41,142 nucleotides of DNA, from the IMG/VR virus record IMGVR_UViG_2718218402_000007, positions 1 through 41,142 of that record; one strand, written 5' to 3'. Within the stretch, counting starts at the first letter, position 1. Each line of letters begins with the position of its first letter. The translations under genes and the position numbers were made by a program. The DNA is from a virus (lineage: Duplodnaviria > Heunggongvirae > Uroviricota > Caudoviricetes). The notes beneath the pieces are model-generated. The model made no database searches. It worked only from the letters and a program-made list of their open reading frames with translations, and was not told where the DNA came from. Of the stretch, positions 2,863 through 39,774 are shown piece after piece.

Positions 2863-3732
<870 letters not shown>

Positions 3733-3792
3733 GTCTTTAAGTGATAAGCATAAACCGCAGCACGATCTTCTTGCATACGACGTGCTACGGTT

Positions 3793-4347
3793 TCATTTAT
3801 CTCCGACCGGAAACTTCTTACACAGTGTCGATATACCAACATCATAGATGATCGCCACCTTCTGGCGAGGAACGCCTGATGCAATTAATCGTCCGGCCTG
3901 CTCCCATTGTTCTGGTGTAAGTTTGGGGCGACGTCCACCAATTCGTCCCTGTGCGCGAGCTGCTTCCAGTCCAGCTTTTGTTCGTTCAACAATCAGTTCA
4001 CGCTCCATTTCAGCCAGGGCACCCATCACATGAAAGAAAAAGCGCCCCATTGGGGTACTGGTATCAATTGAATCCGTCAGACTACGAAAGTTGATGCCTC
4101 GTTCGCGCAACTCCTCCACCAGCACGACAAGATGCCGCATACTACGCCCTAGCCGATCCAGCTTCCAGACAACCAGAGTGTCACCTGCCGATAATGTCCT
4201 GAGCAGTTTTTTCAGTCCCGGCCTTTCGGACTTTGTACCGCTTATCTTGTCTTCAAAAATCAGCTCGCATCCTGCACAGTTCAGCGCATTACGTTGTAGA
4301 TCTGTGTTCTGGTCATTTGTTGACACACGTACATAGCCAATAAGCAT
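3793..4347 (-). CDS. pin: Serine-recombinase DNA invertase (Pin/Gin/Hin/Cin family)
   Basis: Starts MLIGYVRVSTNDQNTDLQ with the catalytic serine motif and a C-terminal HTH; GGGAG Shine-Dalgarno 9 nt upstream of ATG at 4347. Sits immediately beside an invertible tail-fibre segment. Confidence 0.9.
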   Translation of the reverse strand: MLIGYVRVSTNDQNTDLQRNALNCAGCELIFEDKISGTKSERPGLKKLLRTLSAGDTLVVWKLDRLGRSMRHLVVLVEELRERGINFRSLTDSIDTSTPMGRFFFHVMGALAEMERELIVERTKAGLEAARAQGRIGGRRPKLTPEQWEQAGRLIASGVPRQKVAIIYDVGISTLCKKFPVGDK

Positions 4348-27090: not shown

Positions 27091-27285
27091 TCATTGCTGA
27101 AGGCGTCTGTAACAGCCGAACTGGTAATCTGCCAGCCCCGCCATAACCAGCTGGGTCAGTATTAACTGACAGCGTTCGCGTGAAAGGTATGTGTTTTGTG
27201 CTATCTCCCCGACTGTTGCCGGTTCGACGCTTAATTCATTAAAAACAACTTTCGCCGTTTCTGTCATATCTAGCTGTTTTAGCAT
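27091..27285 (-). CDS. Small hypothetical protein with HTH-like segment (64 aa)
   Basis: ATG at 27285 with AAGGAA Shine-Dalgarno; first ORF downstream of the candidate minus-strand terminator at 27405-27432. Confidence 0.45.
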   Translation of the reverse strand: MLKQLDMTETAKVVFNELSVEPATVGEIAQNTYLSRERCQLILTQLVMAGLADYQFGCYRRLQQ

Positions 27286-27404
27286 GTCTTTTTTCCTTCT
27301 GGTTAACATGACATACCAATAACTCTTGTCTAAAAAGCCAGCAAGATAAAAAGTCAGTATTCACGACCACCAGCGTGTTTACTGTACTGCACCAAGTTTA
27401 CAGG

Positions 27405-27432
27405 TACAAAAAAACCGCTCAGCGGCGGGTTT
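27405..27432 (-). terminator. Candidate minus-strand intrinsic terminator (possible tR'-like site of the late operon)
   Basis: On the minus strand: CCGCTGAGCGG hairpin followed by seven T residues. Confidence 0.4.
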
Positions 27433-27477
27433 AAGTTGTGTGGCGAAGTAACCACTCTTAACACGATACAATACTTT

Positions 27478-27507
27478 TTGCGTACGCGTTAGTGAAAAAT
27501 ATATACT
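27478..27507 (+). promoter_or_regulatory. Candidate sigma70 promoter for the two-gene cassette
   Basis: TTGCGT (27478-27483), 18-bp spacer, TATACT (27502-27507); about 80 bp upstream of the cassette start codon. Confidence 0.4.
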
Positions 27508-27586
27508 ATCAAGCACAATCAGTTAACCTTTGGTTCTGCTGAACTAAAAACAGCAATCAGTATTAGTGCTCGTATAAGGAACAGAT

Positions 27587-28522
27587 ATGCTCTTGGGAGA
27601 TAATGAACGTTTCATGATCAAATGCCAGGTTACTTTAAAGAAGTATCCTAATGACGCACCTGACATGCCTTTAGTAAACTGTATTCCTGTTTTAAAAAAT
27701 CGCTATAACAAAGGAGAAGCTGTTTACGAATTAAACAAAGGACGTTCTGTCATAAGATTGCTATCCATAAAAGACGATGAAAATTACCTGAAATTGCTTT
27801 TTCAATATATAAATAAAGATGCTTCTGATCCCGCCTTTTCCAACATAAAAACTGGTGAAACCAGAATTGAGAAAAAGCAAAATGATGAAGGTATGGGGTA
27901 CTCTGCTCATGTGCTTATCAAAAAAAGACCGAGCGACTCATCATTCCAAGATTGTTATGAGGCAATTTTAGAAGAAGTTCCGGGCATTACCAGAGGTTTA
28001 TTAGCCCAAGCTTTAACTTATTTCCTGCGAGAAAATAATTTTTCCTTTATCCGTTCAGGAGGGAAAAAAGAACTTAAGTGCAGACCTATTTTCGACATTG
28101 ATTTTTTGGCTGCAACAACACTTGAGCAATCTCTATCCACTGGTTATTTATGTGGACTTACTGCTACTCGTCGCTTTAAAGATAACTCTTTAGATGATGA
28201 TGGCACAGTAATGGTTGAAGAAGAAACACTAAAGCTATCAACAAAAATACGTCGCGGAGAGGGTGCAATTAAGGCGATTAAGTCTGCATATGACAAACTT
28301 CGTGGTAGAAAGTATACAATGTTAAGAATTTCTTATAAAGACAAAAATAAACGCGTTTCATCAGATCTTGTTTCCATCGGAAAAGAAATGAGCTTACAGG
28401 AACTCGCAACAGCACAATTGGCACAACGTGAAAAAGCAGTGTTGGCATCAACAATTGCCGTTTGCCAAACAGCATTTCACGCAGAACTTCTCGCAAAAAT
28501 GCAAAACTTTATGTTAAAGTGA
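27587..28522 (+). CDS. Uncharacterised soluble protein (311 aa), first gene of the AT-rich cassette
   Basis: ATG at 27587 with AAGGA Shine-Dalgarno 6 nt upstream; strongly AT-rich relative to flanking phage genes; no catalytic or NTP-binding motif recognised by eye. Confidence 0.7.
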   Translation: MLLGDNERFMIKCQVTLKKYPNDAPDMPLVNCIPVLKNRYNKGEAVYELNKGRSVIRLLSIKDDENYLKLLFQYINKDASDPAFSNIKTGETRIEKKQNDEGMGYSAHVLIKKRPSDSSFQDCYEAILEEVPGITRGLLAQALTYFLRENNFSFIRSGGKKELKCRPIFDIDFLAATTLEQSLSTGYLCGLTATRRFKDNSLDDDGTVMVEEETLKLSTKIRRGEGAIKAIKSAYDKLRGRKYTMLRISYKDKNKRVSSDLVSIGKEMSLQELATAQLAQREKAVLASTIAVCQTAFHAELLAKMQNFMLK

Positions 28523-28554
28523 AGGCATGGAAAACCTGTCAAAAGGAGGCATAT

Positions 28555-29124
28555 ATGTATGTTTTATCTAAGGTTTTTACACCTATAGACTACCTACGCA
28601 TAAAGCATCCTGAGAAGCGATTTTTTGACTGGGTTTTACCCATTTTCACTGCTGCAATTATTACTTTATCCATCTATTACTTACCGAAAACCATCTCACT
28701 TCTCGGGAAGGATAGTCTTGTGTCTTTAGTAAACGGGATACTTCAAATACTATCTGGTTTTTACATTGCATCTATGGCTGCAGTTGCAACCTTCAGTAAG
28801 GATGGTATGGATGAAGTTATGCATGGCATACCTCCGGTATTAAAAGGTAAAAAACTTACAAGGCGTAAATTCCTCACTTATCTATTTGGTTATTTAGCGT
28901 TTATGAGCATCGCGCTGTATTTCGTTGGAGGAGCACTTCAACTAACCAGCGCAAGCATCAAGGAATTACACCTTTCATCATATCCACTAGTGAAATCATT
29001 ACTTTTGTTTATTTATTTAAGTACCATATGCAACATTATATACACAACGGCATTAGGTATGTATTTTATGATAGACAAAATGCATGATGAAAAATCGAAA
29101 CTTATAATTAAAGATAAAGAATGA
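28555..29124 (+). CDS. Uncharacterised membrane protein (189 aa, four predicted TM helices), second gene of the cassette
   Basis: AGGAGG Shine-Dalgarno 5 nt upstream of ATG at 28555. Four hydrophobic helices: WVLPIFTAAIITLSIYYL, LVNGILQILSGFYIASMAAVATF, FLTYLFGYLAFMSIALYFVGGAL, LLLFIYLSTICNIIYTTALGMYFMI. Confidence 0.7.
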   Translation: MYVLSKVFTPIDYLRIKHPEKRFFDWVLPIFTAAIITLSIYYLPKTISLLGKDSLVSLVNGILQILSGFYIASMAAVATFSKDGMDEVMHGIPPVLKGKKLTRRKFLTYLFGYLAFMSIALYFVGGALQLTSASIKELHLSSYPLVKSLLLFIYLSTICNIIYTTALGMYFMIDKMHDEKSKLIIKDKE

Positions 29125-29145
29125 GGCTTACGCCTCATTCTTTTT
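29119..29145. terminator. Strong bidirectional intrinsic terminator between the cassette and Q
   Basis: Perfect 9-bp stem GAATGAGGC / GCCTCATTC with TTAC loop; TTTTT on the plus side and a T-rich tract on the minus side. Confidence 0.8.
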
Positions 29146-39698: not shown

Positions 39699-39774
39699 TG
39701 GTGCCGATAATAGGAGTCGAACCTACGACCTTCGCATTACGAATGCGCTGCTCTACCAACTGAGCTATATCGGC
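39699..39774 (-). tRNA. thrW: tRNA-Thr (anticodon CGU), thrW-like; prophage attachment site
   Basis: Reverse complement reads GCCGATATAGCTCAGTTGGTAGAGCAGCGCATTCGTAATGCGAAGGTCGTAGGTTCGACTCCTATTATCGGCACCA: cloverleaf with D and T arms, anticodon loop TTCGTAA, encoded CCA end. Confidence 0.9.

What the first reader, a model, noticed from the sequence alone, without database searches (positions are those of the whole stretch)
27478..29145. AT-rich two-gene cassette (soluble 311-aa protein + 4-TM membrane protein) inserted antisense between Q and the late/lysis operon
The cassette has its own candidate promoter, good Shine-Dalgarno sites on both genes and a strong 9-bp-stem terminator. Its base composition is much more AT-rich than the surrounding phage genes, and it is transcribed against the late operon. 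It sits in the Q-to-lysis slot where lambdoid phages carry cargo such as stx. I recognise no catalytic or nucleotide-binding motif in the first protein; the second is a small polytopic membrane protein. A cytoplasmic partner plus a four-helix membrane protein is the architecture of RexA/RexB-type exclusion modules and, in reversed gene order, of Kiwa, but I cannot assert homology. This is my leading candidate for an undescribed prophage-encoded exclusion or abortive-infection system.
Basis: partly seen in the sequence, partly recalled or inferred. Interest (0 to 1): 0.85.

Follow-up and report, generated by a model that had tools for sequence, protein, structure and literature searches.

The report
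Sucellos-type (Rex-like) prophage defence cassette
The AT-rich two-gene cassette is real and is an untested E. coli prophage copy of an already catalogued anti-phage system (PADLOC candidate PDC-M53, almost certainly the validated Vibrio cholerae "Sucellos" system). It resembles phage lambda's RexA/RexB suicide switch, so it is a new member of a known kind and not an undescribed system.

Summary
Gene A (27587-28522, 311 aa, soluble) and gene B (28555-29124, 189 aa, four TM helices) lie antisense between antiterminator Q and the methylase/lysis genes. The cassette is 36% GC against 51% for the window and ends in a strong hairpin terminator.

It is not undescribed. A and B match PADLOC's PDC-M53A and PDC-M53B. 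They are homologous to a V. cholerae superintegron cassette (A 27% identity, E 9e-32; B 49% identity, E 3e-57). I infer that this cassette is "Sucellos" (SclA/SclB), a validated abortive-infection system that needs both genes and that its authors call RexAB-like.

No sequence or profile similarity to RexA or RexB was found, so it works like Rex but is not a Rex family member. The E. coli allele is rare (4 of 5426 complete genomes) and untested.

The Q-proximal slot is a swap site. Every occupant sampled is a "soluble protein + four-TM protein" pair, and two common types are entirely unannotated.

The parts
27400..27494 (.). Conserved left border of the swap slot. It contains a - strand terminator-like hairpin (27426..27414 plus T7). 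It ends in ...TTTTTGCGTACGCGTTAG, after which related prophages diverge.
   Evidence: Window positions 27400-27492 match 905 of 5426 complete E. coli genomes. Alignments with mEp460, SfII, 14EC007, Siccibacter and Citrobacter prophages lose similarity right after GCGTTAG. The terminator scan is.
27478..27507 (+). Candidate cassette promoter: -35 TTGCGT (27478-83), 18-nt spacer, -10 TATACT (27502-07).
   Evidence: Read from the sequence. The -35 lies in the conserved border. Each compared cassette type carries a -10-like hexamer 17-18 nt downstream: mEp460 TAAACT, SfII TGtAAGAT, 14EC007 TGtAAACT. The consensus scan did not report it. Inference only.
27498..27526 (-). Promoter-like site on the opposite strand (TTAACT, 17 nt, TATATT). 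It points towards the conserved terminator and the late genes and may be the late promoter PR'.
   Evidence: Promoter scan, 9 of 12 matches. Its position relative to the terminator at 27426..27414 resembles a PR'-tR' unit. Inference, not tested.
27587..28522 (+). Gene A (SclA-like, PDC-M53A): a 311-aa soluble protein, the putative cytoplasmic sensor with a RexA/RdgC-like fold. Shine-Dalgarno AAGGA at 27578-82.
28555..29124 (+). Gene B (SclB-like, PDC-M53B): a 189-aa inner-membrane protein with four TM helices, the putative pore or ion-channel effector. Shine-Dalgarno GGAGG at 28545-49.
   Evidence: ORF and start codon. PADLOC PDC-M53B at 2.7e-39 over the full length. AF2 model with pLDDT 84 and helices 19-42, 55-79, 103-130, 144-177. 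Hydropathy scan. 49% identity, E 3e-57, to V. cholerae SclB-like P0425.
29116..29143 (.). Bidirectional intrinsic terminator. The 12-bp stem overlaps the stop codon of B and abuts the stop codon of Q.
   Evidence: Terminator scan. RNA fold of -17.4 kcal/mol with z -6.9.
29144..29506 (-). Antiterminator Q (small PF06530 type). It forms the right border of the slot and is not part of the system.
   Evidence: Pfam hit at 9.3e-46. Q proteins of phages carrying different cassettes are 75-89% identical to the window's Q and differ mainly in the last ~8 residues.

Best explanation
The cassette is a prophage-borne two-component abortive-infection system of the PDC-M53/Sucellos family. It works like lambda RexAB.

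**Shown here**
- A and B form an obligate A-then-B operon.
- The operon is conserved across Proteobacteria and is under purifying selection.
- It is homologous to a V. cholerae integron cassette.

**Taken from the literature on that cassette, if my identification is right**
- Both genes are required.
- The system blocks phages by killing or lysing infected cells early.
- A phage pentapeptide-repeat protein counteracts it.

**Inferred mechanism**
- A is made in the lysogen from its own promoter. It sits in the cytoplasm, probably as a dimer with a RexA/RdgC-like fold.
- A senses an infection cue, either phage DNA or replication/recombination intermediates, or a phage protein.
- A then engages the strongly conserved cytoplasmic TM2-TM3 loop of B (D86 ... 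T102-R103-R104).
- B is an N-in/C-in four-TM protein. It oligomerises or opens as a pore or ion channel.
- The membrane potential collapses and the infection aborts before progeny are made.
For: **Family assignment**
- PADLOC hits: A to PDC-M53A at 1e-17, B to PDC-M53B at 2.7e-39.
- PDC-M53 is a guilt-by-embedding defence candidate, found inside BREX, DISARM or type I RM loci.

**Homology to the V. cholerae cassette**
- BLASTP: A E 9e-32, B E 3e-57.
- That pair also hits PDC-M53A/B.
- It is flanked by attC-like repeats 1765 bp apart.
- It follows an Mrr_cat cassette and lies near a ParDE cassette.
- This fits Sucellos being VCA0367-0368, next to Epona (366).
- Sucellos is described as RexAB-like, needing both genes, having its own promoter, acting by suicide, and being common in Salmonella prophages.

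**Fold**

**Synteny**
- An A homologue ends just before B in 24 of 27 loci, with HMM E-values from 1e-13 to 1e-166.

**Context**
- cI then A then B, co-oriented, in Pasteurella and Proteus prophages.
- The Q-holin slot in Siccibacter and Cronobacter.
- The cargo end of a P2/P4-like element in Aeromonas.
- Next to Wadjet-like genes in Shewanella.

**Selection and composition**
- dN 0.10-0.13 with saturated dS against the Citrobacter orthologues.
- Foreign base composition.
Against: - No experiment exists on this E. coli allele. It is only 27% (A) and 49% (B) identical to the V. cholerae proteins, so its target range and even its activity are unknown.
- Equating the V. cholerae pair with Sucellos is my inference. 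No published accession confirms it (searches found none).
- Common ancestry with RexAB is not shown. The Pfam and PADLOC RexA/RexB models do not match. Profile-profile comparisons give probabilities below 1% even with a 113-sequence profile.
- Foldseek against BFVD does not list lambda RexA among its top 50 hits for A, and finds nothing significant for B.
- Another PADLOC candidate (PDC-M63) showed no activity when tested in its native host, so candidate status alone proves little.
- The promoter, and therefore expression in the lysogen, is not demonstrated.
Confidence: 0.75

Rival explanations
1. It is a two-component membrane-effector defence system, but its likeness to Rex is convergent. 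In this reading A is not a RexA/RdgC-type DNA binder. It senses something else, or has an enzymatic or ligand-binding site built from the invariant residues R8, D81, R93, K97, E101, H108 and E129. B is a generic four-TM effector.
For: - No sequence or profile similarity to RexA or RexB was found.
- Foldseek does not recover RexA.
- The invariant charged cluster lies in a loop that AF2 cannot model, residues 80-102 with pLDDT below 50.
- B shows no significant structural match to any viral protein.
Against: - RexA and RdgC are the two best hits out of 48,164 chains, and both align over about 160 residues.
- The authors of Sucellos independently report structural similarity to RexAB.
- The cI-A-B placement in two genera mirrors lambda.
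Confidence: 0.15
2. It is superinfection exclusion and not abortive infection. The pair would block DNA entry or an early step of incoming phages at the membrane, in the manner of SieA, SieB or Imm, without killing the host.
For: - B is a small polytopic inner-membrane protein.
- Prophage morons near cI or the late genes often encode exclusion proteins (established knowledge).
Against: - The V. cholerae homologue causes early death or lysis of infected cells and no phage amplification at high MOI.
- The P. putida Rex-type system causes RexB-dependent membrane damage.
- An obligate cytoplasmic partner is not typical of entry blockers.
Confidence: 0.05
3. It is not primarily defence. It could be a prophage life-cycle module: a RexA-like modulator of the lysis-lysogeny decision, or of Q-dependent late transcription through convergent or antisense transcription. 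Alternatively it could be an addiction (toxin-antitoxin-like) pair that stabilises the prophage.
For: - Lambda RexA biases the bistable switch independently of RexB (abstract).
- The cassette is transcribed against the late operon and lies between Q and a probable PR'-tR' unit.
- A membrane toxin with a soluble partner resembles some toxin-antitoxin systems.
Against: - The same pair occurs as an integron cassette, in a satellite, and in chromosomal islands with no Q or cI nearby.
- Its orientation relative to the late genes is reversed in Cronobacter.
- It was found embedded in RM or BREX loci.
- The homologue protects against phages.
Confidence: 0.05

Closest known systems
Sucellos (SclA/SclB), V. 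cholerae N16961 superintegron cassette (Darracq et al., bioRxiv 10.1101/2024.07.02.601686), which is the same as PADLOC candidate PDC-M53 (Payne et al., bioRxiv 10.1101/2024.01.29.577857)
   Same: - Same two protein families (PDC-M53A/B HMMs; BLASTP E 9e-32 for A and 3e-57 for B).
- Same gene order, similar protein sizes, and a four-TM partner.
- Both are self-contained cassettes with their own promoter region.
- The authors report the family as frequent in enterobacterial prophages.
   Different: - The proteins are only 27% (A) and 49% (B) identical.
- The cassette is carried in a lambdoid prophage next to Q, not in an integron.
- This allele is untested and its phage targets are unknown.
- Equating the V. 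cholerae pair with Sucellos is inferred from the primer list, neighbouring cassettes and attC spacing.
Bacteriophage lambda RexA/RexB
   Same: - A soluble protein of about 280-310 aa is followed by a small four-TM protein in one operon, carried by a temperate phage.
- RexA (PDB 8TWQ) is the best structural match for A.
- Homologues of A and B occupy the rexAB position directly downstream of cI in Pasteurella and Proteus prophages.
- The proposed logic is the same: a sensor opens a membrane channel and the infection aborts.
   Different: - No detectable sequence or profile similarity exists for either protein.
- B is 189 aa against 144 aa for RexB and carries a long conserved cytoplasmic TM2-TM3 loop.
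- In this window the pair lies next to Q, not cI.
- T4 rII exclusion has not been tested.
RexABpp (PP_5643/PP_5644) of Pseudomonas putida prophage P1 (Rosendahl et al., Sci Rep 2026, PMC12894663)
   Same: - It is a validated prophage pair of a soluble RexA-like DNA binder and a four-TM effector that has no similarity to RexB.
- Overexpressing its A component triggers B-dependent membrane damage.
   Different: - PP_5643 reaches 98% HHpred probability to RexA, whereas my profiles reach below 1% with hhalign.
- PP_5644 was not named among the top 120 relatives of a Pseudomonas M53B homologue, so it is probably a separate Rex-like family.
- I could not obtain its sequences for a direct comparison.
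Kiwa (KwaA/KwaB)
   Same: A small multi-TM protein plus a soluble partner, acting as a membrane-associated defence.
   Different: - The gene order is reversed.
- There are no KwaA/KwaB PADLOC hits and no DUF4868.

Membership tests
PDC-M53 / Sucellos | The soluble protein matches the PDC-M53A profile | tested here: met
   All five PDC-M53A HMMs hit. The best is E 1.1e-17 over residues 41-255.
PDC-M53 / Sucellos | The membrane protein matches the PDC-M53B profile over its full length | tested here: met
   E 2.7e-39, covering profile positions 2-186 of 188.
PDC-M53 / Sucellos | A lies immediately upstream of B on the same strand as one unit | tested here: met
   There are 32 nt between A and B in the window. 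The arrangement A then B holds in 24 of 27 loci from three proteobacterial classes.
PDC-M53 / Sucellos | Homology to the V. cholerae superintegron two-gene cassette | tested here: met
   A against Q9KMI3: 27% identity over 291 aa, E 9e-32. B against P0425: 49% identity over 173 aa, E 3e-57. The Vibrio pair also hits PDC-M53A/B.
PDC-M53 / Sucellos | That V. cholerae cassette is the one published as Sucellos (VCA0367-0368) | tested here: inconclusive
   - Only two of the 16 active cassettes hold two genes: 367-368 and 446-447.
- The phrase 'Sucellos to VCA0373' places Sucellos at 367-368.
- The Vibrio pair follows an Mrr_cat cassette, which fits Epona at 366, and is bounded by attC-like repeats.
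- The published description fits: RexAB-like, missed by Pfam, found in Salmonella prophages.
- No accession or sequence appears in the texts held.
PDC-M53 / Sucellos | Both genes are required for anti-phage protection, and the phenotype is abortive | not testable with these tools
   This needs plaque and liquid-infection assays with the pair and with single-gene deletions.
Lambda RexAB | RexA family sequence signature (Pfam PF15969, PADLOC RexA) | tested here: not met
   - No hit at E up to 1, whereas lambda RexA scores 1e-97 and 9e-110 as a control.
- hhalign of profiles with 28, 52 and 113 sequences against RexA gives probabilities of 0.2-0.4%.
Lambda RexAB | RexB family sequence signature (Pfam PF15968, PADLOC RexB) | tested here: not met
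   No hit. hhalign probability is 0.2%. Foldseek of the B model against viral structures finds nothing below E 0.3.
Lambda RexAB | RexA/RdgC-type two-domain fold | tested here: inconclusive
Lambda RexAB | A four-TM partner is encoded directly downstream | tested here: met
   Four helices in the AF2 model and in the hydropathy scan.
Lambda RexAB | Located directly downstream of cI in the immunity region and co-transcribed with it | tested here: not met
   In the window the pair lies next to Q, about 6 kb from the cI-like gene at 35280-35954. Homologues do sit in the cI-A-B arrangement in Pasteurella multocida and Proteus mirabilis prophages.
Lambda RexAB | Excludes T4 rII mutants through membrane depolarisation | not testable with these tools
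   Requires experiments.
Kiwa | KwaA and KwaB (DUF4868) proteins, with kwaA upstream of kwaB | tested here: not met

The most novel reading that the evidence does not exclude
The Q-proximal slot of this lambdoid prophage group has a conserved border found in 905 of 5426 complete E. coli genomes. It may be a dedicated exchange site for one very diverse superfamily of Rex-like sensor-plus-pore modules.

Besides three diverged PDC-M53/Sucellos alleles (window type, SfII type, 14EC007 type), it holds two pairs with the same architecture and no detectable similarity to anything annotated:
- The mEp460 type (308 aa + 182 aa four-TM protein) is in 219 genomes, including O104:H4 and O26.
- The Stx2a_1447 type (343 aa + 179 aa) is in 14 genomes.

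These would be new Rex-like defence families, and one of them would be among the commonest prophage defences in pathogenic E. coli.
Probability: 0.35. Interest if true: 0.6.

Novelty: new member of a known kind. Interest (0 to 1): 0.4.

Why it matters
- **Annotation.** Two "hypothetical proteins" in E. coli, Salmonella, Shigella phage SfII and related prophages can now be annotated as a Sucellos/PDC-M53-type, Rex-like abortive-infection module.
- **Linking three threads.** The analysis connects a PADLOC candidate with no reported test (no paper in the library mentions PDC-M53), the validated integron system Sucellos, and classical lambda RexAB. The connection rests on fold and on the cI-adjacent position of homologues.
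- **Prophage biology.** The site just after Q emerges as a cargo swap slot distinct from the stx slot. It carries interchangeable sensor-plus-membrane-effector pairs in about one in six complete E. coli genomes, and two abundant types are still uncharacterised.
- **Phage therapy and STEC ecology.** Such modules may shape which phages can grow on lysogens.

Tried and rejected
- **Sequence link to RexA/RexB.** hhalign of A and B profiles against lambda RexA/RexB, and against four-sequence RexA/RexB profiles built from lambda, Klebsiella phi6.1, Hafnia yong1 and Salmonella MS2LVA, gave probabilities below 1%. A profile search of PDB sequences found nothing relevant.
- **Fold of B.** Foldseek against BFVD found nothing significant. 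The afdb50 library was unavailable.
- **Direct link to P. putida RexABpp.** I searched with a Pseudomonas hunanensis B homologue, hoping PP_5644 would be named among the hits. It was not among the top 120. The residue numbers of the published RexBpp mutants do not fit that homologue either.
- **Q C-terminus hypothesis.** I proposed that the C-terminal half of Q co-varies with the cargo and with a Q-binding element. This is rejected. The Q proteins are 75-89% identical to the window's Q, and the DNA divergence is largely synonymous.
- **Nuclease motif.** I looked for a PD-(D/E)xK motif around D81/E95/K97 in A. E95 is not conserved, so this is rejected.
- **Rfam.** No known RNA family lies in or beside the cassette.
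- **Kiwa.** No support.
- **dN/dS.** dS is saturated even against the closest orthologue outside E. coli, so only dN could be reported.
Full report
**1. What is in the sequence**

The region contains two + strand ORFs inside a lambdoid prophage whose genes otherwise run on the - strand.
- Gene A runs 27587-28522 and encodes 311 aa. AAGGA lies five bases before the ATG.
- Gene B is best read from the ATG at 28555 to 29124, giving 189 aa. GGAGG lies at 28545-49. The mechanical ORF list starts it at an upstream TTG, but the family profile and the homologues begin at the ATG.
- A 12-bp-stem hairpin followed by T5 spans 29116-29143. It folds at -17.4 kcal/mol with z = -6.9. It overlaps the stop codon of B and touches the stop codon of the convergent Q gene.

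The cassette is 36.2% GC against 51.2% for the window. It is the lowest-GC 1.65-kb stretch in the whole 41 kb.

- On the right: RusA, KilA-N, DUF968 and a small Q antiterminator (PF06530).
- On the left: a 72-aa ORF, an N6/N4 DNA methylase, holin and lysozyme.

**2. Borders and the slot**

Window 27400-27492 matches 905 of 5426 complete E. coli genomes. The full cassette occurs in only four: D1, MLI104K1, 3045 and H22.

Alignments with phage mEp460, SfII, E. coli 14EC007, and Siccibacter and Citrobacter prophages show a conserved segment ending in ...TTTTTGCGTACGCGTTAG at 27494. Similarity stops there and resumes only at the last codons of Q. The Q proteins themselves are 75-89% identical to the window's Q.

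Every occupant of this slot that I sampled is an antisense pair of a soluble 308-343-aa protein and a 179-194-aa protein with four TM helices.

| Type | Where sampled | Complete E. coli genomes | PADLOC/Pfam match |
|---|---|---|---|
| Window type | this window | 4 | PDC-M53A/B |
| SfII type | Shigella phage SfII | 9 | PDC-M53A/B |
| 14EC007 type | E. coli 14EC007 | not counted | matches my A and B family HMMs; not scanned against PADLOC |
| mEp460 type | mEp460, O104:H4, O26 | 219 | none |
| Stx2a_1447 type | phage Stx2a_1447 | 14 | none |

In the Stx2a phage, stx2 lies about 2 kb further downstream, after the methylase and three tRNAs. The slot is therefore adjacent to the stx slot but distinct from it.

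On the - strand, a promoter-like TTAACT-17-TATATT (27526..27498) followed by the conserved terminator at 27426..27414 looks like a PR'-tR' unit. If so, the cargo sits between Q and the late promoter. This is inference.

On the + strand, the conserved TTGCGT (27478-83) is followed 17-18 nt later by a -10-like hexamer in four of the cassette types compared (window, mEp460, SfII, 14EC007). This is the best candidate for the cassette promoter. The consensus scan did not report it.

**3. What the proteins are**

Pfam and NCBIfam give nothing, and PHROGs gives only families of unknown function.

PADLOC gives clear hits: A to all five PDC-M53A models (best 1e-17) and B to PDC-M53B (2.7e-39, full length). 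PDC-M53 is one of 145 untested "phage defence candidates". They were predicted because family members are embedded inside BREX, DISARM or type I RM loci.

The family is large.
- An exhaustive profile search finds 753 A-family clusters at 50% identity with E up to 1e-3. Nearly all those listed are single-domain proteins of about 310 aa.
- B is more conserved and more widely detected than A: 164 clusters against 39 in the word-indexed search. This is what one expects of a conserved effector and a fast-evolving sensor.
- In 24 of 27 loci retrieved through B, an A homologue ends directly before B. These come from Gamma-, Alpha- and Deltaproteobacteria.
- Against the Citrobacter orthologues, dN is 0.10-0.13 while dS is saturated.

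**4. Structure**

The published RexA structure has a split globular domain (a seven-stranded antiparallel sheet plus a C-terminal helix) interrupted by a dimerisation domain. The order of secondary-structure elements in the A model is compatible with that layout. I could not superpose coordinates.

The match is modest:
- Foldseek against BFVD returns four significant hits, all uncharacterised phage proteins, and no RexA in the top 50.
- One of those phages, ctylc9, also supplies the best (non-significant) match for B.
- All sequence and profile comparisons with RexA and RexB are negative.

*Protein B.* B is modelled with pLDDT 84 as four long helices. Charge distribution suggests an N-in/C-in topology. 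The invariant cytoplasmic TM2-TM3 loop contains D86 and T102-R103-R104.

*An unresolved feature of A.* Its most conserved stretch is SDPAF ... R93 ... K97 ... EG ... H108. This is the one part AF2 cannot place (residues 80-102, pLDDT below 50). It could be a DNA finger, a docking loop for B, or a ligand site.

**5. Context of homologues**

- In Pasteurella multocida and Proteus mirabilis prophages, the pair lies immediately downstream of the CI-like repressor (HTH_3 + Peptidase_S24), co-oriented with it and divergent from cro. This is exactly the lambda cI-rexA-rexB arrangement.
- In Siccibacter it occupies the same Q-proximal slot as here.
- In Cronobacter it lies between an antiterminator and holin, but in the sense orientation.
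- In Aeromonas it sits at the cargo end of a P2/P4-like element.
- In Shewanella it lies next to MksE/JetD-like genes.
- In V. cholerae it is a single superintegron cassette bounded by attC-like repeats.

This mobility and these neighbourhoods are typical of defence cargo. They argue against a role tied to Q or cI.

**6. Link to a validated system**

Darracq et al. (bioRxiv 10.1101/2024.07.02.601686) screened the cassettes of the V. cholerae N16961 superintegron and named a two-gene cassette Sucellos (sclA, sclB). They report the following:
- High predicted structural similarity to lambda RexAB, without a Pfam match.
- Both genes are required.
- SclB is predicted to form a transmembrane pore.
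- The cassette has its own promoter.
- Infected cells die early.
- Phage 24 escapes through a pentapeptide-repeat protein.
- Homologues outside integrons are mostly in prophages, often in Salmonella.

Their primer list shows only two two-gene cassettes, 367-368 and 446-447. The phrase "Sucellos to VCA0373" places Sucellos at VCA0367-0368.

The V. cholerae homologue of my pair fits this position:
- Its proteins are Q9KMI3 (340 aa) and a 192-200-aa membrane protein present on more than 1000 contigs.
- It directly follows an Mrr_cat cassette, as Epona (366) should.
- It also hits PDC-M53A/B.
- A later preprint describes the N16961 copy as a cassette enlarged by an IS.

I therefore equate PDC-M53 with Sucellos at roughly 90% confidence. 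No accession in the held texts confirms it.

The window proteins align with the Vibrio pair at 27% identity (E 9e-32) for A and 49% identity (E 3e-57) for B.

**7. Mechanism, with status of each step**

*Shown here*
- The operon is obligate, conserved and under purifying selection.
- It belongs to the PDC-M53 family.
- It is homologous to the Vibrio cassette.
- A has a RexA/RdgC-like best structural match.
- B has four TM helices.
- Homologues occupy the rex position.

*Taken from the literature on the homologue*
- Both genes are required, the outcome is abortive, and the cassette has its own promoter.

*Inferred*
- A is a cytoplasmic sensor, probably dimeric and DNA-binding.
- On infection it engages the conserved cytoplasmic loop of B.
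- B opens or assembles as a pore, and membrane potential collapses.

*Unknown*
- The trigger, the phages targeted by this allele, and whether the cassette is expressed in the lysogen.

**8. Verdict**

The system is not undescribed. It is a diverged, untested E. coli member of the PDC-M53/Sucellos family. It works like RexAB but is not a demonstrable member of the Rex protein families.

The more novel material lies beside the finding. The Q-proximal slot is a swap site, and two of its abundant occupants, the mEp460 type and the Stx2a_1447 type, have the same architecture and no annotation at all.

Noticed in passing
L002:3152-4078 (+) and L002:4065-4613 (+), phage mEp460. The same pair occurs in L045 (E. 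coli O26) and L046 (O104:H4). It is the equivalent of window 27495-29143.: The same Q-proximal slot holds a different antisense pair: a 308-aa soluble protein (phrog_2802) and an overlapping 182-aa membrane protein (three segments pass my hydropathy threshold). GenBank does not annotate the membrane ORF on that strand. The pair has no PADLOC or Pfam hit and no detectable similarity to A/B or RexA/B. It is present in 219 of 5426 complete E. coli genomes.
   Followed up: partly
L043:2633-3664 (+) and 3657-4196 (+), Stx2-converting phage Stx2a_1447: This is a further occupant type of the slot: a 343-aa soluble protein and a 179-aa four-TM protein (phrog_3482 and phrog_16807, both of unknown function). 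It has no defence-database hit and is present in 14 complete E. coli genomes, including O157:H7. In this phage stx2 lies about 2 kb beyond the slot.
   Followed up: partly
L044:2635-4249 (Shigella phage SfII genes SfII_50 and SfII_49); L047:3647-5258 (E. coli 14EC007): The serotype-converting phage SfII carries a second PDC-M53/Sucellos allele in the same slot (A 2e-32, B 2.8e-54 to the PADLOC models). E. coli 14EC007 carries a third allele, 58-64% identical to the SfII pair, which matches my A and B family HMMs. Both alleles are only 24-29% identical to the window's proteins, so diverged alleles of one system are exchanged at one site.
   Followed up: yes
window 27400-27530, - strand: A promoter-like TTAACT-17-TATATT (27526..27498) is followed about 70 nt later by a conserved hairpin plus T7 (27426..27414). 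This looks like a PR'-tR' short-transcript unit. If so, the cargo lies between Q and the late promoter. The conserved segment contains the palindrome GCGTACGC.
   Followed up: partly
window 33849-33936 (-), 33961-34037 (-), 39702-39774 (-): Rfam finds a C4 antisense RNA and an isrK Hfq-binding sRNA side by side, which suggests an immI/ant-type immunity region. It also finds a tRNA gene next to the integrase end of the prophage, probably the attachment site.
   Followed up: no
L037:9361-10263 (Proteus mirabilis prophage); L006:16708-16963 (Pasteurella multocida prophage): Genuine RdgC-family genes (PF04381) are encoded a few genes downstream of the cI-A-B unit in the same leftward operon. These prophages therefore carry both an RdgC and a protein with an RdgC/RexA-like fold.
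   Followed up: no
window 27091-27309 (-): A 72-aa ORF lies between the slot and the methylase. It has weak winged-helix matches (TrmB and DprA_WH, E about 4e-3) and is conserved in related phages as a 65-67-aa hypothetical protein.
   Followed up: no
BFVD entries A0A8S5S8L2 and A0A8S5S8H0 (Siphoviridae sp. ctylc9): One uncultured phage supplies both the best structural match to A (314 aa, E 9e-10) and the best, non-significant, match to B (172 aa, E 0.33). This suggests a remote A/B-like pair beyond the reach of sequence searches.
   Followed up: no
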